A stretch of DNA of 34,241 nucleotides from a bacterium (GTDB taxonomy: Bacteria > Patescibacteriota > Microgenomatia > UBA8517): NCBI GenBank assembly GCA_021824915.1, contig JAKAJP010000022.1, positions 89,832-124,072 on the forward strand, in the 5' to 3' direction. Under the pieces are notes generated by a model that was not told where the DNA came from, made no database searches, and worked only from the letters and a program-made list of their open reading frames with translations. Shown here in pieces: positions 88 to 30,573 of this stretch (positions are counted from its first letter, which is position 1; each line of letters opens with the position of its first letter). The position numbers and the translations under genes are program-made.

Positions 88-729
88 ATGTTGGAAATAG
101 ATATTTTGACATTATTCCCCGAAATGTTTGATGGACCTTTTCAAGCTTCGATTATTAAAAGGGCTGAAAGTCGTGATCTAATAAAAATTGATGTACACGA
201 TTTGAGAAAGTGGGGGGATGGTGAGCGAAAAAACGTTGACGACAGGCCCTACTCCGGAGGGCCGGGAATGATTTTGAGAGTAGATATAATTGATGCGGCG
301 TTAAAAGACCTAAAAACCAAAAATTCAAAAGTAATACTCTTAGATGCTACGGGGGCCAGATATACACAACAAAAGGCGGTGGAATTGGCAAAAACAAATC
401 ACTTGATTCTGATCGCGGGACACTATGAAGGTGTTGACCATAGAGTTCACGAACATTTGGTTGATGAGGTAATTTCCATCGGCGATTACGTTCTGACGGG
501 CGGAGAAATTCCAGCAATGGTTTTAGTTGATTCAATTATTAGACTCATCCCCGGAGTTTTGGGCAAAGATGAGTCTGCTGTTGACGAATCCCATAAAGAG
601 CCAGGATATCTTGAATATCCGCAATATACCCGTCCGGAAAATTACCATGGTTGGAAGGTTCCGAAAATTCTACTGGGCGGAAACCATGCCGAAATCGAAA
701 AGTGGAGAAAAGAAAAGTCAGGACTTTAG
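88..729 (+). CDS. trmD: tRNA (guanine37-N1)-methyltransferase
   Basis: IDILTLFPEMF, VDDRPYSGGPGM, GHYEGVD, SIGDYVLTGGE and LEYPQYTRP motifs. Start moved to ATG 88 (family N-terminus; -10 TAGAAT at 74-79). Confidence 0.98.
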   Translation: MLEIDILTLFPEMFDGPFQASIIKRAESRDLIKIDVHDLRKWGDGERKNVDDRPYSGGPGMILRVDIIDAALKDLKTKNSKVILLDATGARYTQQKAVELAKTNHLILIAGHYEGVDHRVHEHLVDEVISIGDYVLTGGEIPAMVLVDSIIRLIPGVLGKDESAVDESHKEPGYLEYPQYTRPENYHGWKVPKILLGGNHAEIEKWRKEKSGL

Positions 730-1614
730 CTGAAGAGCAAATTCGTCAATCATCTCACGCCAAGCCTTAAACTTCATATTAAGTTTTTCCTGGGTTTTCT
801 TGGTGGCAAGTCCACCCCAAACAGGTCTTTTATTTCTCTCCGGAGTTTTCAAAAATTCCAATAGCGAAGCTTTTTGGGCTACGTCTTTCACTCCTCGCGC
901 CTTTTCCAAAGCATAACTACCAACTTCAAAATAGGAACCAGTATCGGCGCTTACTATATGAAAATTTCCTTCAAGAGAATCGTCAATAATTTTTGTCAGG
1001 GGATCGGTTATATCATCAACAAAAATTGGAGTAATTATCTGATCTGTAAAAAGCGGAAAGAGATTTTTTTGGTCATAAAGATCTAAAATCTTTCTGATAA
1101 AGTCAGTCTTACCGGAAAACTCCGACCTAAACGGGTTTGCAATTCTTACTATTGCGTGAGGCGTCCCCACATTTGAAACTTCGACCTCACCTCTATTTTT
1201 CGTCCAGCCATACCAGCAAAGATTTTTATTATCATTGGGAAGAATTGTATCCTCATCAAATGGACCCTTTGAATCTTCTAAACCTTCGAAAACAAAATCA
1301 GTCGAAAAATGAATAAAAAACTTTTTATACTCCTTAGAGGCTTCAGCTAAATAACGGGGGGCTAAAACATTTAACTTCCAAGTAATTCCATTTTGATCAC
1401 CTGTTTCCTTTTCTGCACCGGCAACATCTGTATAAGCCGCAAGATTGACCACAACTTCAAACCCACCACCTGAAAAAAAATTCTTGATACTTTCTTTATC
1501 GGTTATATCAATTTGCTGCCGATCAACCGGAATAATATCAAATTTGTCCTTTGCCAACTCAATAAATCTTGAGCCAACTAAACCCGAAGAACCAATAACT
1601 AGGACTTTCTTCAT
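718..1614 (-). CDS. rmlD: dTDP-4-dehydrorhamnose reductase
   Basis: Rossmann GSSGLVG, VNLAAYTDV, HFSTDFVFEG, YxxxK (YGWTK), LFTDQIITP; adjacent to rmlC and rmlB. Confidence 0.92.
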   Translation of the reverse strand: MKKVLVIGSSGLVGSRFIELAKDKFDIIPVDRQQIDITDKESIKNFFSGGGFEVVVNLAAYTDVAGAEKETGDQNGITWKLNVLAPRYLAEASKEYKKFFIHFSTDFVFEGLEDSKGPFDEDTILPNDNKNLCWYGWTKNRGEVEVSNVGTPHAIVRIANPFRSEFSGKTDFIRKILDLYDQKNLFPLFTDQIITPIFVDDITDPLTKIIDDSLEGNFHIVSADTGSYFEVGSYALEKARGVKDVAQKASLLEFLKTPERNKRPVWGGLATKKTQEKLNMKFKAWREMIDEFALQLKS

Positions 1615-23822: not shown

Positions 23823-24386
23823 TTAAAGCCCCAATTCCGAAGATATTCCCTGCATTGCGGAAAGAGCTGTAGCAATAAAATCCTGAAGTTTTATTCCAAG
23901 CTCTTTATCACAATTTTCGATATCTTCTCTTTTCACTCCGGCAGCGAAGCTTTTTGAGTTCCATTTTGAAAGAACATTCTCAACCGTAACAGAAGCCAGT
24001 TTTTTATCAGGACGTACTAAAGTAACAGCAATTATTAAACCTGTCAGTTCATCACAACAAAAAAGTGACCACTGCATCTTGGTTTTTGGTGATTTTCCCT
24101 CATGAAACCAGCCGTGTGACTCAATTCCGGTTAAAAGTTCCTCATCTGTCTCTCCCAGATCCCTAACCCAATTTGCCATCAATTTTGCATGATTGCCCGG
24201 ATCGGTTTTTGTGAATTCATAGTCCCCGTCATGAAGAAGTCCGACAATTTCCCATTTACTTTCATCTTCACCAAAATGGGAAGCCAGAGATTTCATAACA
24301 GCAGCAACAGAATAACAATGCTTCCGTAAATTAACGGACTGCATCTTCGAATGAAGCAGTTCTAATGCTTTGTCCTTAGAGATCAT
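23823..24386 (-). CDS. HD-domain (HDIG-type) phosphohydrolase
   Basis: LRKH, GLLHDGDYE, SHG, CDELTGLI, W..KSFAAGVKR. Confidence 0.85.
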   Translation of the reverse strand: MISKDKALELLHSKMQSVNLRKHCYSVAAVMKSLASHFGEDESKWEIVGLLHDGDYEFTKTDPGNHAKLMANWVRDLGETDEELLTGIESHGWFHEGKSPKTKMQWSLFCCDELTGLIIAVTLVRPDKKLASVTVENVLSKWNSKSFAAGVKREDIENCDKELGIKLQDFIATALSAMQGISSELGL

Positions 24387-24395
24387 TGCTAAAAA

Positions 24396-24689
24396 TTATT
24401 TTTTGGAAGTTTTCTTGGCTTTTACTTCTTTCCAATCACCTTTCATTCTCATGAGTTTCATCTTCATGACCATAAAAAGGAGATATTTAACAAAAGCAAA
24501 AACAAACATTACTCCAGCAACAATAATAATCCACTTGATCACTACATAAGGGTTGATCGTCGGAAAAACAAACCCCAAGCCGAAAATCAAAAGCATTCCA
24601 AAAACACTAAATGCTATGGACATTAAAATATCCATATGTGCCATTTTTCGCATTTTGTGCACTTTCCACATCATTTCTTCGTTCATCAT
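24396..24689 (-). CDS. Small Met-rich membrane protein (2 TM)
   Basis: 97 aa, 15 Met by hand count, two hydrophobic helices, basic C-terminus; tightly packed between lysS and the HD gene. Confidence 0.7.
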   Translation of the reverse strand: MMNEEMMWKVHKMRKMAHMDILMSIAFSVFGMLLIFGLGFVFPTINPYVVIKWIIIVAGVMFVFAFVKYLLFMVMKMKLMRMKGDWKEVKAKKTSKK

Positions 24690-24699
24690 TTTTTACGCG

Positions 24700-26166
24700 T
24701 TAAGCATTATCACCTCCCTTCGGCCTCATTGTCGGATATAGTATCACTTCTTTAATGCTCCATGTATTGGTAAAAAACATAGTAAGCCTATCGATACCAA
24801 TACCAATCCCTCCAGTTGGCGGCATCCCGTATTCCATTGCCTCCAAAAAATCTTCATCAACATGCTGAGCCTCTTCTTTATCTTTGCGGGCAATTTTCGT
24901 GTCGGAAACAAACCGCGACCTTTGTTCTTTCGGGTCAGTTAGCTCACTCCAACCGTCACAAATTTCTTTGCCCCCTATATAACCTTCAAATCTTTCGACA
25001 AACCCATCCTCCCCCGATTTATCTTTAGAAAGAGGCGAAACATCCTTTGGATAATCAATCACCCAAGTTGGTTGAATTAAAGTACCAGATATTTTCTTGT
25101 CAAAAATTGTAAAGATAAGTTGCCCTTTTGTTTCTTCTCCTAAAATCTCGATATCGTTCTTTCTGCAGTATTCAACCAAACTTTTTTGGGTTTCCTTTCC
25201 AACATCAAGCTTTAATTTGTCTTTCAAAAGATCAGTCATTTTAACCCTTGGCCAACTCCTACCAACGTCAATCGAGTGTTCTCCAACTTGCATAGTGGTA
25301 CCTCCAAAAATTGCTTTTGCAAGGTGCTTAAAAAGCCCTTCCGTTACGTCCATCACTTTTTGATAATCAGAGTAGGCAGAATAATATTCGATCATTGTAA
25401 ATTCGGGGTTATGGGTAAGGTCCATTCCCTCATTCCTAAAATCTTTACAAATCTCATAAACCTTACTGTACCCTCCAACCAGAAGACGTTTAAGATAAAG
25501 CTCATCTGCAATCCTCAGGTACATTTCTGCATCTAGGGCATTCAAGTGGGTCTTAAAAGGTTTTGCGTTCGCTCCACCATAAAGAGGTTGAAGAGTTGGA
25601 GTTTCAACTTCAAAATAACCTAGATTATCCAAATACCTTCTAACCTCACGGATAAGCATTGTTCGGGTATTAAAACGGGCTCGAACGTCAGGATTAAAGA
25701 GGAGGTCTAAATATCTTTTCCTATACCTGTCCTCCATGTCCTTGAGACCAAACCAATCGTTCGGGAGCGGGCGCACGGCCTTACCTAAAATTTGGAACTC
25801 GGAAGTATCGATGGTAACTTCTCCGGCCTGAGTTTTAACAACCTTACCCTTAACGGCCAGAAAATCACCTATATCAAAAAACTGAAGTGTTTCGTAATCC
25901 TCGCCCAAGACTTTTTCCTGAAACAAAACTTGAATTTTACCCGTCTCATCCACAATATCAAAAAACTTTACAGCGCCATGGCGCCTGATCGACCAAATCC
26001 GGCCTGGGACGAGCACTTCGTGACCGATTCTCTTGAGTGCTTCTTTTGTAGTAATGGGCTCCCCCGTAAGTTCAATTCCGGAAGGATATGGGTTTATACC
26101 CAATTTTTTGAGGGTCTCAAGTTTCTCAAGCATGACCTCACGTGTGGTTTGGGGTTCAGCTGACAT
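24700..26166 (-). CDS. lysS: Lysine--tRNA ligase (class II)
   Basis: OB anticodon domain, YRKRYLDL, EVETPTL, YLRIADELYLKRL, FRNEGMDLTHNPEF, YGMPPTGGIGIGIDRL. Confidence 0.98.
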   Translation of the reverse strand: MSAEPQTTREVMLEKLETLKKLGINPYPSGIELTGEPITTKEALKRIGHEVLVPGRIWSIRRHGAVKFFDIVDETGKIQVLFQEKVLGEDYETLQFFDIGDFLAVKGKVVKTQAGEVTIDTSEFQILGKAVRPLPNDWFGLKDMEDRYRKRYLDLLFNPDVRARFNTRTMLIREVRRYLDNLGYFEVETPTLQPLYGGANAKPFKTHLNALDAEMYLRIADELYLKRLLVGGYSKVYEICKDFRNEGMDLTHNPEFTMIEYYSAYSDYQKVMDVTEGLFKHLAKAIFGGTTMQVGEHSIDVGRSWPRVKMTDLLKDKLKLDVGKETQKSLVEYCRKNDIEILGEETKGQLIFTIFDKKISGTLIQPTWVIDYPKDVSPLSKDKSGEDGFVERFEGYIGGKEICDGWSELTDPKEQRSRFVSDTKIARKDKEEAQHVDEDFLEAMEYGMPPTGGIGIGIDRLTMFFTNTWSIKEVILYPTMRPKGGDNA

Positions 26167-26189
26167 ATAGCCTAAGTATAAGCGCGGGG

Positions 26190-26657
26190 TTATTCAATCG
26201 CAAGGATTTCATACCTGAGTTTCCCTGCAGGGGCCTCAACCTCGGCAGTCTCACCGACTTTTTTGCCGTAGAGGGCTTTTCCGAGAGGAGATTCAGGCGA
26301 AATGCGCTTATTTATTGGATCAGCCTCCCATTCGCCCACCATCTCATAGACATGTTTTGCTCCATTAAACTTAACCGTAATTTTGGTGCCGACGTCAATT
26401 CCACCTGCCGAAGAAGCCTTCGCTACAATGCTAGCGCTACGTAAGAGTTCCGTGAGCTCTTCAATCCTTCCGTCAAGAAACTCGAGCTCTTCCCGGGCGG
26501 ATTGATAATCGGCATTTTCCGACAAATCCCCTTGAGCACGGGCGTTAGATAAACGATCAACAAGCTTGGGCCTCTTAACATCCACAAGAGTAGAAAGCTC
26601 CTTTTTGAGAGCCTCCAAGCCTTCTTTAGTAAGTTTAACTTGTTTTCCGTCTTGCAT
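26190..26657 (-). CDS. greA: Transcription elongation factor GreA
   Basis: LTKEG, GDLSENADY, ISPESPLGKAL, APAG. ATG 26657 preferred over TTG 26663. Confidence 0.96.
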   Translation of the reverse strand: MQDGKQVKLTKEGLEALKKELSTLVDVKRPKLVDRLSNARAQGDLSENADYQSAREELEFLDGRIEELTELLRSASIVAKASSAGGIDVGTKITVKFNGAKHVYEMVGEWEADPINKRISPESPLGKALYGKKVGETAEVEAPAGKLRYEILAIE

Positions 26658-26668
26658 ACCCAAAAACT

Positions 26669-26698
26669 AAAAAATCCCTCTCTTTTTTGGAGAGGGAC
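26669..26698 (-). terminator. Intrinsic terminator inside the greA 5' leader
   Basis: Minus strand GTCCCTCTC-caaaaaa-GAGAGGGAT then TTTTT: 9-bp stem including one G-U, ending about 11 nt before the greA ATG. Confidence 0.8.
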
Positions 26699-26798
26699 TA
26701 GGTTTATTTCTCTCCAAATTAAAATGCCCTAATAAAGAGGGTCATCTTAACAATAATTTTGGAGGGATTACAAACCATATTTTGAACCAATGAGGCTG

Positions 26799-26827
26799 AT
26801 TGTAGACTCTATGTTTAGCCTTGTCAA
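26799..26827 (-). promoter_or_regulatory. sigma70-type promoter of greA
   Basis: TTGACA (26827-26822), 17 nt, TACAAT (26804-26799). Confidence 0.85.
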
Positions 26828-26864
26828 GAAATCAGAATAGATCAAAATGTGACCTAAATAACAG

Positions 26865-26937
26865 TGACCTCATTGGGACTCGAACCCAAGTTACCAGGAT
26901 GAGAACCTGGTGTCCTAGACCGCTAGACGATGAGGCC
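26865..26937 (-). tRNA. tRNA-Glu (anticodon CTC), 3' CCA not encoded
   Basis: GGCCTCATCGTCTAGCGGTCTAGGACACCAGGTTCTCATCCTGGTAACTTGGGTTCGAGTCCCAATGAGGTCA: 7-bp acceptor stem, CCAGG/CCTGG anticodon stem around TT-CTC-AT, GTTCGA T-loop; 73 nt. Confidence 0.97.
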
Positions 26938-26949
26938 AAGCTAACTGGT

Positions 26950-26958
26950 ATTATACCA
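26950..26958 (-). promoter_or_regulatory. Extended -10 promoter of tRNA-Glu
   Basis: TGgTATAAT ending 12 nt upstream of the tRNA 5' end. Confidence 0.7.
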
Positions 26959-26967
26959 CACCAAAAC

Positions 26968-26996
26968 TTGACTTTTGGCCCATAGTGTTGTATATT
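26968..26996 (+). promoter_or_regulatory. sigma70-type promoter of the VanW-like gene
   Basis: TTGACT (26968-26973), 17 nt, TATATT (26991-26996). Confidence 0.75.
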
Positions 26997-27004
26997 GCAG
27001 CCTC

Positions 27005-27030
27005 AGCCCCGATTTATATCGGGGCTTTTT
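27005..27030 (+). terminator. Terminator-like hairpin in the 5' leader of the VanW-like gene
   Basis: AGCCCCGAT-ttat-ATCGGGGCT perfect 9-bp stem, run of T through 27030, 7 nt before ATG 27038. Confidence 0.65.
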
Positions 27031-27037
27031 GGTAAAT

Positions 27038-27658
27038 ATGTTCACAGATTTACTCGTCCTGACATATCTATTTTCAGGCTCACTCATGCCCAAGACTCTG
27101 GGAGCTTCCAGCGTGGAAATAGCTACAAGAAGCTTCCCGATGACGGATAGGTACGATAACGCCTACGTAAACGAGGTTTTTAAGGACAACATCCTTCTAA
27201 CACTAAGGTATATGGATGGCTCGGTCAAAAACACCAAGGATATTTCCTGGCCGGAGGTTGAAAAACCTTTTCATACCGAATTTACATTAAAACCCGGTGA
27301 AGAGTTTGCATTCCATGATAAAGTCCTGCCGACTTACAAAAACGTAGTCAAAACTACAAACGCCCATTTTAACTGGGATGAAGGGTTCAAATCTGACGGG
27401 TTTTTGACTGGAGACGGGGTCTGTCACTTGGCCTCACTAATGTATTGGGCAGCTCGTGATGCAGGACTTACCACTTACGCGCCCTCCAATCACAACTTTG
27501 CCAAAATTAATGACGTTCCCAAAGAATATGGGGTAGCCGTGGAAAGCCCGCTTCCCATGGGTAATCTTTATATTACAAACAACTTTGACAAGGCAATTAC
27601 CTTTAGTTTTGACTATAAAGATCAGGGTCTAACTGTGAGTGTAACCAAAGCTAAATGA
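27038..27658 (+). CDS. VanW-like domain protein
   Basis: LKPGEEFAFH, GDGVCHLASLMYWAARDAGL (cf. GGGxCQxxSTLYxA), NH, NLYITNN. Start moved to ATG 27038. Confidence 0.75.
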   Translation: MFTDLLVLTYLFSGSLMPKTLGASSVEIATRSFPMTDRYDNAYVNEVFKDNILLTLRYMDGSVKNTKDISWPEVEKPFHTEFTLKPGEEFAFHDKVLPTYKNVVKTTNAHFNWDEGFKSDGFLTGDGVCHLASLMYWAARDAGLTTYAPSNHNFAKINDVPKEYGVAVESPLPMGNLYITNNFDKAITFSFDYKDQGLTVSVTKAK

Positions 27659-27660
27659 CG

Positions 27661-30078
27661 CTAGTTGGCAGCCAACAAGGTTGATATTGGGGTAACTTTT
27701 TCCTCAGTTCTTGTCCTCGGAGGCCACTTGACCATTGCCACTTTGAGCACGTCTTCTACTTCTTCAGCAAAAACAAATTTGATATCGCGCTTAACCTGAT
27801 CCGGAATATCCTCCAAATCCTTTTTATTTTCCTTGGGAACTATTATCGTTTTTAGACCCGCCGTATGCCCTGCGACACTCTTCTCTTTCAATCCCCCTAT
27901 TTCAAGAACACGACCTCTTAGCGTTACCTCACCGGTCATGCCTACCTCGCGCCTTACAGGAATACCGGTAAGAGCTGAGACTAAGGCTGTAGTAATTGAG
28001 ACTCCCGCACTCGGCCCGTCCTTTGGAACCGCACCTTCAGGGACATGTATGTGAACGTCAATATTTTCGGCAAAATTAGACTTTAACCCTAACTTGTCGT
28101 AGTGAGAACGGGTCCAGGTAAAAGCCGCTTTAGCACTCTCCCTCATAACATCCCCAAGCTGACCCGTAAGAGTCAATTTACCCTTCCCCGGCATTAGAGA
28201 TACTTCAATAAACAAGATTTCCCCCCCAAATGGCGTGACAGAAAGCCCTGTAGCCATACCGACCTCATCCTTCTTTTCGGCAATCTGAGAGTTAAATCTT
28301 TGTGAACCAAGAAACTTATAGACATCTGGAATTTCAACTTTCTTTGGATATCTCTTGCCTTCAGCCACCAAACGGGCAATTTTTCTTAAAACAGAAGCAA
28401 TACTCCTCTCCAAATTTCTTACCCCAGCCTCCCTTGTATAGCTATTTATAATCGCCCTTAGGGCGCCTTCTGAGATTGTCACCTTTTTATTTGTCAGCCC
28501 ATGCACCGCAAGCTGTTTTGGCCATAAAAACTTCTTGGCAATGGCAAACTTTTCAGCTTCCGTGTAACCTGGGAAAGTAATAACCTCCATACGGTCGCGA
28601 AGCGGGGCCGGAATTGTATCAAGCACATTACCGGTACAAATAAACATTACTTCACTCAAATCAAAAGGAACCTCAAGATAGTGATCAGAGAACTCCTTAT
28701 TTTGCTCAGGATCGAGCGCTTCCAGAAGAGCACTTGACGGGTCACCCCTAAAATCCACTCCGATTTTATCTATTTCATCAAGCATAAAAACCGGATTTTT
28801 GGTCCCTGCCGTCTTTATTCCTTGAATAATCCTACCCGGGAGTGCCCCAACATATGTCCGTCTGTGACCCCTAATTTCAGCCTCGTCTCTGATCCCTCCC
28901 AAAGACACTCTCACAAACTTGCGGTTTAACGCCTTGGCAATTGACCTTCCGATTGAAGTTTTACCAACTCCCGGTGGACCAATAAAACAGAGGATTGTTG
29001 GATGCACTTCTTCTTTTTTACTATCCTTTGACTTCCCCTTAATCTTCATCACGGCCAAAAACTCCAAAATTCGCTCCTTGGCCTTGTCTATGCCATAATG
29101 CTCATCCTCCAAGATTTTGGCAGCATTCGACATTGAAACATCATTCGGCGAGGAATTGCTCCAAGGCATATCACAAAGCCAATCGAGATAGTTTCTGATA
29201 TAACCCCCCTCAGGATTGTTTGGAGAAAGCTGTGATAAATGCTTAAGCTCTTTTTCTGCCCTCTCCCGAACCTCCACCGGCATACCAGCGGCCTTAATCT
29301 TGGTTTTGTATTCTTTTATCTCCTCGCTTGTTAACTCTCCTTCTCCTTCTTCCATCTCACCAAGCTCTTGTTCAATTGTTCTTTTCTTCTCCCTAAGCAT
29401 TGCCCGCCTCATTTGATCCTCAAACCTTTTTTGGGTCTTGCTGGATATAGTCCTTTCAATCTCAAGTGCGTTTACTTCCTTGCTCAAAAACTCGTGCACT
29501 TGATTTAGTCTGTTCTCAAAACTCAACTCCTCAAGAATTTTTTGTCTCTCCTGTGTTTTTACGTCTAAAAGTGAGGCAACTTGATCTACAAGTTCAACAG
29601 GCTCAACAATACCCGAAACCAATTTCATTACCGTCATTATTTCGGCTTGCTTACCAAGATTAACCGCCTTCTTAAAAAGTTCCTGAAGTCGACTCGACAA
29701 AACTTTTATCTCAGGTGTAATTTTTACTTCCTCAGCAATCTCCTCAACTTTACCAATAAGATGAGGTTCTGAAGCTATAATTTCACGAAGGCGCACCCTT
29801 GCTTGTCCACGAATGAGAGCATGAATTTCCCCCTCCGTTGACATCATTTGAGTTATTGTGGCGATGGTTCCGATTTTGAAGAGATCTTCTTCCCCAGGCT
29901 CAACCGTCCTTGGATCTTTTTGGGAAAAAATTGCAATGACACGATCTTCCTGAAAAGCAGTATTGATTGCAGAAACACTTTTTGGTCGGCCAAATGAAAG
30001 AAGACTATCTGTATGTGGAAAAACTACCGATCCTCGAATTGCAACTATCGGAACTCTTCTGATCGTATCTTTTTGCAT
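27661..30078 (-). CDS. lon: ATP-dependent protease La (LonA)
   Basis: N-terminal substrate domain, GPPGVGKTS, RGHRRTYVGALPG, LDEIDK, PKDGPSAG (catalytic Ser), TGEVTLRGRVLEIGGLKEK. Confidence 0.99.
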   Translation of the reverse strand: MQKDTIRRVPIVAIRGSVVFPHTDSLLSFGRPKSVSAINTAFQEDRVIAIFSQKDPRTVEPGEEDLFKIGTIATITQMMSTEGEIHALIRGQARVRLREIIASEPHLIGKVEEIAEEVKITPEIKVLSSRLQELFKKAVNLGKQAEIMTVMKLVSGIVEPVELVDQVASLLDVKTQERQKILEELSFENRLNQVHEFLSKEVNALEIERTISSKTQKRFEDQMRRAMLREKKRTIEQELGEMEEGEGELTSEEIKEYKTKIKAAGMPVEVRERAEKELKHLSQLSPNNPEGGYIRNYLDWLCDMPWSNSSPNDVSMSNAAKILEDEHYGIDKAKERILEFLAVMKIKGKSKDSKKEEVHPTILCFIGPPGVGKTSIGRSIAKALNRKFVRVSLGGIRDEAEIRGHRRTYVGALPGRIIQGIKTAGTKNPVFMLDEIDKIGVDFRGDPSSALLEALDPEQNKEFSDHYLEVPFDLSEVMFICTGNVLDTIPAPLRDRMEVITFPGYTEAEKFAIAKKFLWPKQLAVHGLTNKKVTISEGALRAIINSYTREAGVRNLERSIASVLRKIARLVAEGKRYPKKVEIPDVYKFLGSQRFNSQIAEKKDEVGMATGLSVTPFGGEILFIEVSLMPGKGKLTLTGQLGDVMRESAKAAFTWTRSHYDKLGLKSNFAENIDVHIHVPEGAVPKDGPSAGVSITTALVSALTGIPVRREVGMTGEVTLRGRVLEIGGLKEKSVAGHTAGLKTIIVPKENKKDLEDIPDQVKRDIKFVFAEEVEDVLKVAMVKWPPRTRTEEKVTPISTLLAAN

Positions 30079-30081
30079 ATT

Positions 30082-30108
30082 TTAGCAGTCTAACTAATTA
30101 AGTGCTAG
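30082..30108. promoter_or_regulatory. CIRCE element (HrcA operator) overlapping the lon promoter
   Basis: TTAGCAGTC-N9-AAGTGCTAG versus consensus TTAGCACTC-N9-GAGTGCTAA: 15/18 with the exact 9-nt spacer. Confidence 0.8.
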
Positions 30109-30115
30109 TTGTCAA
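30087..30115 (-). promoter_or_regulatory. sigma70-type promoter of lon
   Basis: TTGACA (30115-30110), 17 nt, TAGACT (30092-30087), then 8 nt to the ATG. Confidence 0.82.
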
Positions 30116-30573
30116 GAGAGGAATTTCCTAAAATGAACCTTTTCAATAACTACAGCTACAATTGTGCCTAAAAAGGCCCCGCCCACAATATCAACTGGAT
30201 AGTGAACGTTAGCAAGAACTCTGGAAATCCCGATAGCCACAGCTGCAATCAAATAAACCCAGCCGATTTTTTTATCGTGCATAAAAATCGTGGTCGCTAA
30301 AGCGAATGCTAAAGTGGTATGTTCAGAAGGAAAGGCCCCATCAGTTGGCCTTAACATAACCTCAATTTCTTTTCCATTTGTAACAAAAGGTCGTAGAGTC
30401 GGAAAAAAACGTTTAATAAGGAATGCTATAATCCATGCGACCGCACAAGCCGCAAGAGCGTGGACAACCTGCTCCTTTTTTATTTTACCATCAATAAACC
30501 AAAGAATTATTAATCCTGCAAACAAAAACCAGATTAGGAAAGTTGCAAAAAATTCAATTAAGATATCCTCCAT
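30112..30573 (-). CDS. PAP2-family phosphatase (undecaprenyl-pyrophosphate phosphatase, BcrC-like)
   Basis: C1 KRFFPTLRP, C2 FPSEH, C3 SRVLANVHYPVD; multiple TMs. Start moved to ATG 30573. Confidence 0.88.
   Translation of the reverse strand: MEDILIEFFATFLIWFLFAGLIILWFIDGKIKKEQVVHALAACAVAWIIAFLIKRFFPTLRPFVTNGKEIEVMLRPTDGAFPSEHTTLAFALATTIFMHDKKIGWVYLIAAVAIGISRVLANVHYPVDIVGGAFLGTIVAVVIEKVHFRKFLS

What the first reader, a model, noticed from the sequence alone, without database searches (positions are those of the whole stretch)
26658..26798. greA leader folds as a two-state attenuator (terminator / antiterminator / anti-antiterminator)
Seen on the minus strand after TTGACA-17-TACAAT, a ~135-nt leader: segment 1 AATCCCTCCAAAATTA (26769-26754); inner hairpin ATGACCCT-ctttatt-AGGGCAT; segment 2 TAATTTGGAGAG (26721-26710); segment 3 GTCCCTCTCCAAA (26698-26686); segment 4 GAGAGGGAT+T-tract. 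3:4 is an intrinsic terminator. 2:3 pairs 9 bp (TTTGGAGAG/CTCTCCAAA) and excludes it. 1:2 pairs about 10 bp with one bulge and frees 3:4. Established: E. coli greA is attenuated by a leader terminator releasing the GraL RNA. Inference: an independently built, switchable autoregulatory leader that senses RNAP pausing/GreA level; CPR riboregulators are little studied.
Basis: partly seen in the sequence, partly recalled or inferred. Interest (0 to 1): 0.72.

Follow-up and report, generated by a model that had tools for sequence, protein, structure and literature searches.

The report
Small-ORF transcription attenuator before greA

Summary
The leader folds far better than shuffled copies (-42 kcal/mol, z = -4.0).

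I compared 66 non-redundant greA upstream regions from related metagenome contigs.
- All 66 were kept for having a near-consensus promoter, and 63 also have an intrinsic terminator about 17 nt before the greA ATG.
- Leaders come in two lengths: 25 short (terminator only) and 41 long (like the window).
- On 31 long leaders, helices 1:2, the inner hairpin and 3:4 show clear covariation.
- The 2:3 antiterminator pairing is kept in 34 of 35 leaders, mostly by sequence conservation, with modest covariation.

- In 32 of 40 long leaders the first ATG opens 15-21 codons.
- The stop codon ends 1-6 nt before segment 2, and TAA, TAG and TGA are used about equally.
- The other two frames do this in 0 and 2 of 40 leaders.

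This is the geometry of a trp-type, ribosome-operated attenuator, but without tandem regulatory codons.

My best reading is a leader-peptide attenuator that reports ribosome progress. Direct sensing of GreA or of pausing is neither shown nor excluded. No RNA data could be found. I class it as a new variant of a known kind.

The parts
26799..26827 (-). Sigma-70-type promoter TTGACA-17-TACAAT; transcription start inferred near 26792
   Evidence: Matches 11 of 12 consensus positions, the best site in 24000-30500. A promoter matching at least 10 of 12 is present in the 66 related greA upstream regions kept for analysis. The start site is inferred, not measured.
26719..26778 (-). Leader ORF (uORF), 19 codons plus TAA: MVCNPSKIIVKMTLFIRAF; starts about 13 nt after the inferred transcription start, with no Shine-Dalgarno sequence
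   Evidence: Coordinates. In 32 of 40 long leaders the first ATG opens 15-21 codons and its stop ends 1-6 nt before segment 2; the other frames do so in 0 of 40 and 2 of 40. Stop usage is TAA 11, TAG 11, TGA 10. The four closest relatives all have 19 codons. Translation itself is inferred.
26754..26769 (-). Segment 1 (AATCCCTCCAAAATTA), uORF codons 4-9; pairs with segment 2 as the anti-antiterminator (P1)
   Evidence: Across 31 leaders, all 8 pairs of the 1:2 helix show changes on both sides and 85% of cells are paired.
26718..26751 (-). Inner hairpin P2 (GUUAAGAUG-A-CCCU / AGGG-CAUUUUAAU), lying inside the uORF; its 3' strand includes the stop codon
   Evidence: Minimum-free-energy fold. Compensatory changes in close relatives: ACCCU/AGGGU, GCCCU/GGGGC, GCCAU/GUGGC, UGCCU/AGGCG. 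All 8 P2 pairs show changes on both sides.
26710..26721 (-). Segment 2 (TAATTTGGAGAG): the shared strand of 1:2 and 2:3; begins with the uORF stop codon
   Evidence: A ribosome with the stop codon in its A site would cover it; this rests on the known ribosome footprint and is an inference.
26686..26698 (-). Segment 3 (GTCCCTCTCCAAA): 5' arm of the terminator and partner of segment 2 in the antiterminator
   Evidence: The 2:3 duplex is 9 bp at -13.9 kcal/mol. It is <= -8 kcal/mol in 34 of 35 relatives, with a median z of -3.2 against shuffled segment 2.
26662..26699 (-). Intrinsic terminator: 10-bp stem (26699-26673), 7-nt loop, then UUUUUUAGUUUUU; ends 4 nt before the greA ATG
   Evidence: A terminator in the same place occurs in 63 of 66 related leaders, with a median hairpin energy of -11 to -12 kcal/mol. 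Helix 3:4 is 92.5% paired and 6 of its 9 pairs change on both sides. No 3'-end data exist.
26190..26657 (-). greA (155 aa), the controlled gene; there is no room for a promoter of its own after the terminator
   Evidence: Pfam GreA_GreB_N (2.8e-25) and GreA_GreB C-terminal domain (1.7e-23). The promoter scan lists no site between the terminator and the ATG.
24700..26166 (-). lysS (class II lysyl-tRNA synthetase), 23 nt downstream of greA and probably co-transcribed
   Evidence: Pfam tRNA-synt_2 at 3.2e-85. lysS follows greA in 22 of 34 long-leader loci and 11 of 23 short-leader loci, so the leader travels with greA rather than lysS.
26864..26937 (-). tRNA-Glu(CTC) directly upstream (context); it has no terminator of its own before the greA promoter
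   Evidence: ARAGORN and Rfam.

Best explanation
This is a ribosome-operated (leader-peptide) transcription attenuator that controls greA and, in this genome, the lysS gene behind it.

**How it is built.** A strong promoter starts an RNA whose first roughly 13 nt are followed by a 19-codon ORF. Segment 1 lies inside that ORF. The stop codon is the first triplet of segment 2. About 50 nt further on lies an intrinsic terminator (3:4), 17 nt before greA.

**Predicted behaviour.**
- Naked RNA: 1:2 and the inner hairpin form first, segment 3 stays free, 3:4 forms and transcription stops.
- Ribosome that has reached the stop codon: it covers segment 2, so 3:4 forms and transcription stops.
- Ribosome still on the first half of the ORF while polymerase makes segment 3: it hides segment 1 and leaves segment 2 free. 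2:3 then forms, the terminator cannot form, and greA is transcribed.

**What is sensed.** The peptides have no run of any one codon. The likely input is therefore how far the first ribosome lags behind RNA polymerase, that is, general translation speed or coupling, and not the supply of one amino acid.

**Shown here:** the sequence elements, their conservation, covariation of 1:2, P2 and 3:4, conservation of 2:3, and the conserved ORF with its stop next to segment 2.

**Inferred:** the transcription start, termination at the U-tract, translation of the ORF, ribosome masking, and the nature of the signal.

**Short leaders.** These keep only the promoter and terminator, as in E. coli GraL. They appear to have lost the sensor module repeatedly.
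For: **Anatomy.** All coordinates and energies check out.

**Conservation.**
- Of 66 non-redundant related greA upstream regions, 63 have a terminator a median of 17-18 nt before the ATG.
- Leader length is bimodal: 25 are short and 41 are long.

**The ORF.**
- 32 of 40 long leaders have a first-ATG frame of 15-21 codons that ends 1-6 nt before segment 2. The other two frames do so in 0 and 2 of 40.
- All three stop codons are used about equally.
- The frame relative to segment 1 differs between lineages, yet the stop still lands beside segment 2.

**Structure.**
- A covariance model finds exactly one full-length hit per locus, at the expected place, in 31 sources.
- The terminator state is 86.5% paired against 70.0% when shuffled. 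22 of 25 pairs change on both sides. The covariation score is 0.490 against 0.226 (0 of 500 shuffles reach it), and slid controls stay at or below 0.16.

**The 2:3 pairing.**
- The median duplex is -14.2 kcal/mol and it is <= -8 in 34 of 35 leaders.
- A leader's own segments 2 and 3 pair better than segments taken from different leaders: -13.8 against -11.2 kcal/mol, permutation p < 1e-4.
- Pairing is 82.4% against 78.9% shuffled (0 of 500), and covariation is 0.185 against 0.141 (2 of 500).

**Ribosome-masking model.**
- With the ORF masked up to codon 8, the probability of 2:3 exceeds 0.6 in 32 of 35 leaders.
- With a ribosome at the stop, segment 3 is mostly free.
- In the window, naked nascent RNA forms P1 and P2 and leaves segment 3 free. 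Masked RNA forms 2:3.

**Missing Shine-Dalgarno is normal here.** Only 6 of 32 large ORFs in the window have such a motif, and many have a TATAAT box 6-10 nt before the ATG.

**Modularity.** L104 (short) is its sister L137 (long) minus the stretch from the uORF to segment 2. Well-supported branches of the GreA tree force at least 5 long/short switches.
Against: - No transcript data exist. There are no 5' or 3' ends and no evidence that the ORF is translated.
- The 2:3 signal rests mainly on conserved GGAG/CUCC cores. Its covariation is modest, and by the tool's own caveat related sequences can beat shuffles without any structure.
- At equilibrium, 17 of 35 naked leaders already prefer 2:3. The anti-antiterminator role of 1:2 is therefore not uniform, and the behaviour without a ribosome is uncertain.
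- With a ribosome at codon 8 and segment 4 present, 3:4 is still thermodynamically preferred in the window. Antitermination must be kinetic.
- The ORF overlaps conserved helices, so part of its conservation could be carried by the RNA structure.
- Short leaders keep the same pyrimidine/purine asymmetry in their terminator arms without any segment 2. This model does not explain that.
Confidence: 0.62

Rival explanations
1. One reading: a translation-independent switch that reads RNA polymerase pausing or GreA level. GreA, alone or with a partner, changes how long polymerase dwells in the leader. That dwell time decides whether 1:2 or 2:3 forms, giving autoregulation. The small ORF is incidental or secondary.
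For: - E. coli GreA represses greA through its leader (GraL) in cis and needs catalytically active GreA (PMC6829880).
- The greA/rnk family ranks among the gene families most often preceded by attenuators with antiterminators (PMC2965389).
- Short leaders here have a terminator but no ORF, so some control or tuning exists without a ribosome.
- The alternative helices are real.
Against: - It does not explain the conserved ORF, whose stop sits 1-6 nt before segment 2 in 32 of 40 leaders with all three stop codons in use.
- No conserved pause signal or protein-binding motif was identified.
- The E. coli effect could not be reproduced in vitro and needs an unknown factor (PMC6829880).
- The window leader is not a detectable relative of the E. 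coli one.
- It is not mutually exclusive with the best explanation.
Confidence: 0.17
2. A constitutive attenuator or small-RNA generator. The terminator simply throttles a very strong promoter and releases a roughly 125-nt leader RNA that might act in trans, as GraL does. The alternative pairings follow from the repeated CUCC and GGAG words and do not switch.
For: - 25 of 66 relatives manage with promoter plus terminator only.
- 1:4 pairing is as frequent as 2:3 in raw pairing (82.6%) yet no better than shuffles. Composition alone therefore creates pairing potential.
- GraL has trans effects in E. coli (PMC2836576, PMC6829880).
Against: - 2:3 beats shuffled, slid and mismatched controls, whereas 1:4 does not.
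- 2:3 extends into the terminator loop, and those positions covary: UUGG:CCAA, GUGG:CCGC, UUAGAG:CUCUAA.
- The conserved ORF geometry would have no purpose.
Confidence: 0.12
3. An amino-acid-specific attenuator of the greA-lysS(-serS) operon. Stalling at Lys or Ser codons of the leader peptide reports the charging of the cognate tRNA, as in pheM-pheST.
For: - lysS follows greA in the window (23 nt gap) and in about 58% of relatives.
- K11 is conserved in the five closest leaders, at a position where a stall would free segment 2.
- Ser is frequent at codon 6.
- There is a sub-threshold Rfam match to Phe_leader (23.7 bits against a gathering score of 55).
Against: - No leader has tandem Lys or Ser codons. 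Mean Lys content is 1.55 per uORF with lysS downstream and 1.30 without, and three lysS-linked uORFs have no Lys at all.
- The commonest K/R position is the third-last codon, where a stalled ribosome would cover segment 2.
- The leader occurs equally without lysS.
- The Ser codon is simply the CUCUCC core of segment 1.
Confidence: 0.05
4. The hairpin is just the terminator of the upstream tRNA-Glu gene and has nothing to do with greA regulation.
For: tRNA-Glu(CTC) ends 36 nt before the -35 box and has no terminator of its own.
Against: - A consensus promoter lies between the tRNA and the hairpin.
- The same terminator precedes greA in relatives with no tRNA upstream or with the tRNA on the other strand.
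- greA has no other promoter.
Confidence: 0.02

Closest known systems
Classical ribosome-mediated attenuators of amino-acid operons (trpL, pheL/pheM, hisL, thrL, leuL, ilv leaders)
   Same: It has a short leader ORF close to the 5' end, segment 1 inside the ORF, and the stop codon placed so that a terminating ribosome covers segment 2. It has mutually exclusive 1:2, 2:3 and 3:4 helices and an intrinsic terminator just before the first structural gene.
   Different: It has no tandem regulatory codons, and the controlled gene is a transcription factor rather than a biosynthetic operon. An extra hairpin (P2) sits between segments 1 and 2. The ORF has no Shine-Dalgarno sequence and a very short 5' UTR. 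The lineage is CPR/Microgenomates. There is no Rfam membership; the best match is Phe_leader at 23.7 bits against a gathering score of 55.
Mycobacterial whiB7 5' leader (uORF-controlled terminator/antiterminator; bioRxiv 10.1101/2023.06.02.543512)
   Same: A uORF upstream of a regulator gene. Efficient uORF translation favours a Rho-independent terminator, and slowed translation favours an antiterminator and readthrough. The peptide sequence varies between species.
   Different: The whiB7 uORF is longer and enriched in alanine, and its output is a stress and antibiotic-resistance regulon with positive feedback. Here the output is GreA, and no amino-acid enrichment beyond that expected from base composition was seen. 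The two are not homologous.
E. coli greA leader / GraL, and the greA-leaders predicted in Proteobacteria, bacilli and clostridia (PMC2836576, PMC6829880, PMC2965389)
   Same: A strong promoter followed by an intrinsic terminator in the greA 5' leader, with greA expressed by readthrough. The short leaders found here (promoter, about 50 nt, terminator) resemble GraL closely in layout.
   Different: No sequence or structure homology was detected. GraL has only about 19 nt before the terminator and no ORF. Its GreA-dependent control and trans-acting role could not be tested here.
pyrBI / pyrE attenuation in enteric bacteria
   Same: The decision depends on the distance between RNA polymerase and the first translating ribosome, not on tandem codons for one amino acid.
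   Different: In pyrBI the ribosome physically blocks the terminator hairpin, and UTP-sensitive pausing is the signal. Here the ribosome would choose between alternative helices, and no nucleotide-sensitive pause site is evident.

Membership tests
Leader-peptide (ribosome-mediated) transcription attenuator | Conserved short ORF in the leader, upstream of the terminator | tested here: met
   32 of 40 long leaders have a first-ATG frame of 15-21 codons, against 0 and 2 of 40 for the other frames. All three stop codons are used. The ORF is present in all 5 members of the window's own clade.
Leader-peptide (ribosome-mediated) transcription attenuator | Mutually exclusive helices 1:2, 2:3 and 3:4, with 3:4 an intrinsic terminator | tested here: met
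   1:2, P2 and 3:4 covary. 2:3 is conserved and beats its controls modestly. The terminator is present in 63 of 66 leaders.
Leader-peptide (ribosome-mediated) transcription attenuator | Stop codon positioned so that a terminating ribosome masks segment 2 | tested here: met
   The stop ends 1-6 nt (median 3) before the UUGGAGAG core. In the window the TAA is the first triplet of segment 2. Masking itself is inferred from the known ribosome footprint.
Leader-peptide (ribosome-mediated) transcription attenuator | Tandem regulatory codons cognate to the regulated pathway | tested here: not met
   No codon runs were found. Lys content does not depend on lysS linkage. This fails the amino-acid-operon subtype but not the general mechanism; whiB7-type uORFs also lack such runs.
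Leader-peptide (ribosome-mediated) transcription attenuator | The ORF is translated and readthrough responds to ribosome position | not testable with these tools
   No RNA-seq, Term-seq or ribosome profiling covers this organism.
Rfam Phe_leader (RF01859) | Score at or above the family gathering threshold | tested here: not met
   23.7 bits against a gathering score of 55, E = 0.059 on a 261-nt search.
Enterobacterial greA leader / GraL | Sequence and structure homology to the curated enterobacterial family | tested here: not met
   No greA-leader family appears among the matches at E <= 10 on window 26600-26860, nor at gathering threshold on the whole window.
Enterobacterial greA leader / GraL | Intrinsic terminator between the greA promoter and the greA start, with greA expressed by readthrough | tested here: met
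   The 15-17 nt between the U-tract and the ATG leave no room for a promoter.
Enterobacterial greA leader / GraL | GreA-dependent autorepression acting through the leader in cis; trans-acting leader RNA | not testable with these tools
   This needs genetics or biochemistry. It is known only for E. coli (PMC6829880).
Intrinsic (Rho-independent) terminator | G+C-rich stem, short loop, U-tract immediately 3' | tested here: met
   A 10-bp stem with 5 G-C pairs, a 7-nt loop and UUUUUUAGUUUUU. The hairpin energy is -14.0 kcal/mol.
Intrinsic (Rho-independent) terminator | RNA 3' ends at the U-tract | not testable with these tools
   No transcript data are available.

The most novel reading that the evidence does not exclude
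The leader is a dedicated gauge of transcription-translation coupling that sets the level of the anti-backtracking factor.
- A codon-agnostic mini-ORF, started almost at the 5' end, lets the cell measure whether the first ribosome keeps pace with RNA polymerase over a fixed course of about 50 nt from the stop codon to the U-tract.
- When ribosomes lag, polymerases elsewhere in the cell lose their pushing ribosome and backtrack. In that state 2:3 forms and more GreA is made.
- When ribosomes keep up, the terminating ribosome masks segment 2 and greA is throttled.
- GreA's own effect on polymerase speed in the leader would close the loop.

This would be a homeostatic circuit widespread in CPR bacteria and not described in the literature I could search.
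Probability: 0.3. Interest if true: 0.8.

Novelty: new variant of a known kind. Interest (0 to 1): 0.6.

Why it matters
GreA removes backtracked RNA polymerase, and backtracking rises when ribosomes fall behind polymerase. A leader that reads ribosome progress and controls greA would tie the supply of the rescue factor directly to the failure it repairs. That logic has not been described for greA in the papers I could search. The E. coli greA autoregulation loop still lacks a mechanism (PMC6829880).

The element also gives a concrete, testable riboregulator for CPR bacteria, whose gene regulation is almost unstudied. It is small (about 135 nt) and self-contained. It comes in natural with-sensor and without-sensor versions in sister lineages, which act as ready-made controls. 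It also suggests that translation from very short, Shine-Dalgarno-less 5' ends is fast enough in these organisms to drive attenuation.

Tried and rejected
I used the search for related loci and the look-up of encoding contigs instead.
- **The genome-contig scan was saturated by the universal GreA motif AQGDLSEN.** It gave only two useful relatives, L001 and L002. The metagenome scan was then run with a C-terminal fragment alignment to avoid this.
- **RNA evidence: nothing usable.**
  - The four 'RNA?' runs hold only the tRNA and a relative's greA.
  - The three metatranscriptomes from the source study hold nothing.
  - A 4.65-kb contig from a greA relative in runs X8 and X18 ends about 7 nt past the aligned part, near the start codon. 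It comes from another organism and may be an assembly break, so I draw nothing from it.
- **MAFFT plus RNAalifold on 21 leaders recovered only the 2:3 core,** because the hairpins were misaligned. Covariance-model alignments replaced it.
- **1:4 pairing.** RNAalifold proposed it for the window's clade, but it is no better than shuffles. I rejected it as a selected helix.
- **Lys or Ser sensing for lysS/serS** was rejected.
- **T-box or riboswitch.** No Rfam match came anywhere near threshold.
- **tRNA-Glu terminator reading** was rejected on comparative grounds.
- **Purine-rich 3' arm as the greA Shine-Dalgarno sequence.** It lies 17-25 nt from the ATG, and the genome rarely uses such motifs.
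- **Crude census outside the clade.** A terminator-like hairpin lies within 120 nt of greA in 35 of 72 loci from other phyla. This was uncontrolled, so I did not use it.
- **Literature searches** for greA plus 'leader peptide' and for Patescibacteria plus 'transcription attenuation' found nothing relevant.

Full report
**What is there**

All features below lie on the minus strand.
- tRNA-Glu(CTC) at 26937-26864.
- A promoter, TTGACA-17-TACAAT, at 26827-26799. It matches 11 of 12 consensus positions and is the best site in 6.5 kb.
- A leader of about 135 nt.
- An intrinsic terminator: stem 26699-26673, a 7-nt loop and UUUUUUAGUUUUU.
- greA starting at 26657. Both Gre domains are found by Pfam.
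- lysS, 23 nt after greA.

The leader's minimum free energy is -42.0 kcal/mol, against -27.3 +/- 3.7 for shuffles (z = -3.99). That fold contains 1:2, the inner hairpin and 3:4. Forcing 2:3 gives -35.5 kcal/mol.

**Relatives**

I collected loci in three other ways:
- a genome scan;
- a metagenome scan with a clade-specific C-terminal GreA alignment;
- look-ups of the closest GreA proteins.

An earlier scan note places the genome in Microgenomates (CPR). This gave 66 non-redundant greA upstream regions with a promoter matching at least 10 of 12 positions.
- 63 have a terminator hairpin plus U-tract a median of 17-18 nt before the greA ATG.
- Leader length is bimodal: 25 short (35-101 nt, terminator only) and 41 long (130-202 nt).
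- On a GreA tree the two forms are interspersed. Well-supported branches force at least 5 switches.
- L104 (short) equals its sister L137 (long) minus the stretch from the small ORF to segment 2. The sensor part is therefore a removable module on a constant promoter-terminator core.
- lysS follows greA in 22 of 34 long and 11 of 23 short loci. The leader belongs to greA, not lysS.

**The overlooked small ORF**

The window leader contains ATG...TAA at 26778-26719, encoding MVCNPSKIIVKMTLFIRAF.
- In 32 of 40 long leaders, the first ATG after the promoter opens 15-21 codons (mostly 17-19).
- Its stop codon ends 1-6 nt before the UUGGAGAG core of segment 2.
- Starting from the same ATG, frames +1 and +2 do this in 0 and 2 of 40.
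- Stop codons are TAA 11, TAG 11 and TGA 10.
- The four closest relatives (GreA 76-90% identical) all have 19 codons with different sequences: MSRNLSQIITKMALFIGAF, MSRNLSQIIVKIAIFAVAI, MNRNLFQVLVKSTLFIRVI and MYRNFFRTTVKFCLIIKAI.
- The frame relative to segment 1 differs between lineages (for example L109 and L098), yet the stop stays next to segment 2.

The geometry is tight:
- -10 box to ATG: median 20 nt.
- Stop to U-tract: median 50 nt, interquartile range 47.5-53.5.
- U-tract to greA ATG: median 17 nt.

The ORF has no Shine-Dalgarno sequence, but that is normal for this genome. Only 6 of 32 large ORFs in the window have such a motif, and many have a TATAAT box 6-10 nt before the ATG.

**Structure tests**

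A covariance model built from six leaders, then rebuilt from 22, found one full-length match per locus at the expected place in 31 sources. The statistics for each candidate pairing follow.

| Pairing | Cells paired | Shuffled | Covariation score |
|---|---|---|---|
| Terminator state (1:2, P2, 3:4), 31 sequences | 86.5% | 70.0% | 0.490 against 0.226 (0 of 500) |
| 2:3, 31 sequences | 82.4% | 78.9 +/- 1.0% (0 of 500) | 0.185 against 0.141 (2 of 500) |
| 2:3, 22 sequences | 84.1% | 81.4% (5 of 500) | 0.178 against 0.143 (5 of 500) |
| 1:4, 22 sequences | 82.6% | 83.6% (434 of 500) | 0.292 against 0.320 (436 of 500) |

- In the terminator state, 22 of 25 pairs change on both sides, and slid controls stay at or below 0.16. 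That alignment was fitted to this structure, which favours it somewhat.
- For 2:3, the same alignment was not fitted to the pairing. Slid controls reach at most 72% pairing and 0.13 covariation.

Independent energy tests also support 2:3:
- The median 2:3 duplex is -14.2 kcal/mol, and it is <= -8 in 34 of 35 leaders. The median z is -3.2 against shuffled segment 2.
- A leader's own segment 3 pairs with its segment 2 better than other leaders' segment 3 does: -13.8 against -11.2 kcal/mol, permutation p < 1e-4.
- The 2:3 helix reaches into the terminator loop, and those positions change together: UUGG:CCAA, GUGG:CCGC and UUAGAG:CUCUAA.

RNAalifold proposed the 1:4 pairing for the window's clade, but it is no better than shuffles. 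It looks like a by-product of base composition.

My conclusion on structure: the terminator state is well established, and 2:3 is conserved with moderate support. Weak covariation is expected for strands that must satisfy two partners.

**Mechanism**

I masked RNA as a ribosome would and computed pair probabilities before segment 4 emerges.
- Ribosome at codon 8: the probability of 2:3 exceeds 0.6 in 32 of 35 leaders.
- Ribosome at the stop codon: segment 3 is mostly unpaired (median 0.31).
- Naked RNA: 18 of 35 leaders favour 1:2 and the rest favour 2:3.

In the window, naked nascent RNA forms P1 and P2 and leaves segment 3 free. Masked RNA forms 2:3. This matches the trp-type logic:
- a terminating ribosome, or no ribosome, leads to termination;
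- a ribosome lagging on the first half of the ORF leads to readthrough.

The peptides have no codon runs. Lys content does not depend on lysS linkage. The input is therefore probably general ribosome progress relative to polymerase, as proposed for the mycobacterial whiB7 uORF (bioRxiv 10.1101/2023.06.02.543512).

All of this is inference from sequence. I found no transcript data.

**Comparison with what is known**

- greA leaders with terminators and antiterminators were predicted in Proteobacteria, bacilli and clostridia. The greA/rnk family ranked seventh for 5' attenuators (PMC2965389).
- E. coli GraL is a short terminated leader (PMC2836576). GreA represses greA through it in cis, with an unknown helper and no effect in vitro (PMC6829880).
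- Neither the whole-window scan at gathering thresholds nor a permissive scan of the leader region lists a greA-leader family. The best weak match is Phe_leader, at 23.7 bits against a gathering score of 55.
- Searches of the held literature found no report of a leader ORF for greA, or of attenuation in Patescibacteria.
- Earlier notes of this scan describe the same kind of uORF attenuator before greA in other CPR lineages. They agree with my reading, but they are unchecked AI notes and do not count as independent evidence.

**Verdict**

The finding is real and conserved. The two-state attenuator reading holds. The proposed sensor (GreA or pausing) is not supported by anything in the sequence, and a conserved leader ORF offers a better-founded one. 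I class it as a new variant of a known kind.

Noticed in passing
window 26968-27040 (+ strand); L162 about 746-870 and L163 about 610-740 (reverse strand): The divergent VanW-like gene (ATG 27038) has its own promoter, TTGACT-17-TATATT. It is followed at once by a strong hairpin (AGCCCCGAT-ttat-ATCGGGGCT, -19.6 kcal/mol for the leader region as folded) plus UUUUGG, only 9 nt before the ATG. The same layout occurs in two relatives, with compensatory stem changes and no small ORF. This is a second promoter-proximal, terminator-like leader.
   Followed up: partly
window 26792-26798 and 26997-27004; the first 7 nt after the -10 box in 66 related leaders: Both promoters carry CA(G/C)CCTC directly after the -10 box. 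Across the greA leaders this stretch is 75% pyrimidine, with consensus near TCCCTCGTT. It may be a lineage-specific discriminator or initial transcribed element.
   Followed up: partly
whole window (32 ORFs of at least 150 aa): Only 6 of 32 large ORFs have a Shine-Dalgarno-like tetramer upstream, and many have a TATAAT-like box 6-10 nt before the ATG. Leaderless or near-leaderless mRNAs therefore seem common in this genome.
   Followed up: partly
terminator arms of 63 related leaders (window 26699-26673): The 5' arm is almost always pyrimidine-rich and the 3' arm purine-rich. In short leaders the G:C counts are 20:110 in the 5' arm and 135:12 in the 3' arm. The asymmetry persists where there is no segment 2 to pair with, so the alternative-helix model does not explain it.
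   Followed up: partly
uORFs of 35 long leaders (window codon 17, AGG at 26730-26728): Lys or Arg sits at the third-last codon in 20 of 35 leader peptides and at the last codon in 7 more. This could reflect the conserved AUUA(A/G)GG of the P2 loop and 3' arm, or an effect of the nascent peptide at termination.
   Followed up: no
L104 against L137; L122 against L109/L110/L119; L127 against L115: Short leaders nest inside long-leader clades. L104 looks like a clean deletion running from just after the 5' UTR to just before the terminator. These pairs are natural sensor-less controls.
   Followed up: partly
window 26864-26937 (-): tRNA-Glu(CTC) has no terminator before the greA promoter. Transcripts from the tRNA promoter would run into the leader and end at its terminator. 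The tRNA-Glu/greA adjacency recurs in several relatives.
   Followed up: no
L001 and L002 (genome contigs records): Both records are titled 'uncultured Gammaproteobacteria'. Their GreA nests within the Microgenomates-type set, and L001 carries the same leader with a uORF, so the bins are probably mislabelled. L002 has a divergent leader with a 23-codon ORF containing two KK pairs.
   Followed up: no
runs X8 and X18, laid on window 26104-26650: An abundant 4.65-kb contig from a greA-lysS relative (about 85% identical), in runs labelled RNA-Seq, ends about 7 nt beyond the aligned part, at the position of the greA start codon. This is either an assembly break at the U-tract or a 5' end, and I could not tell which.
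   Followed up: no
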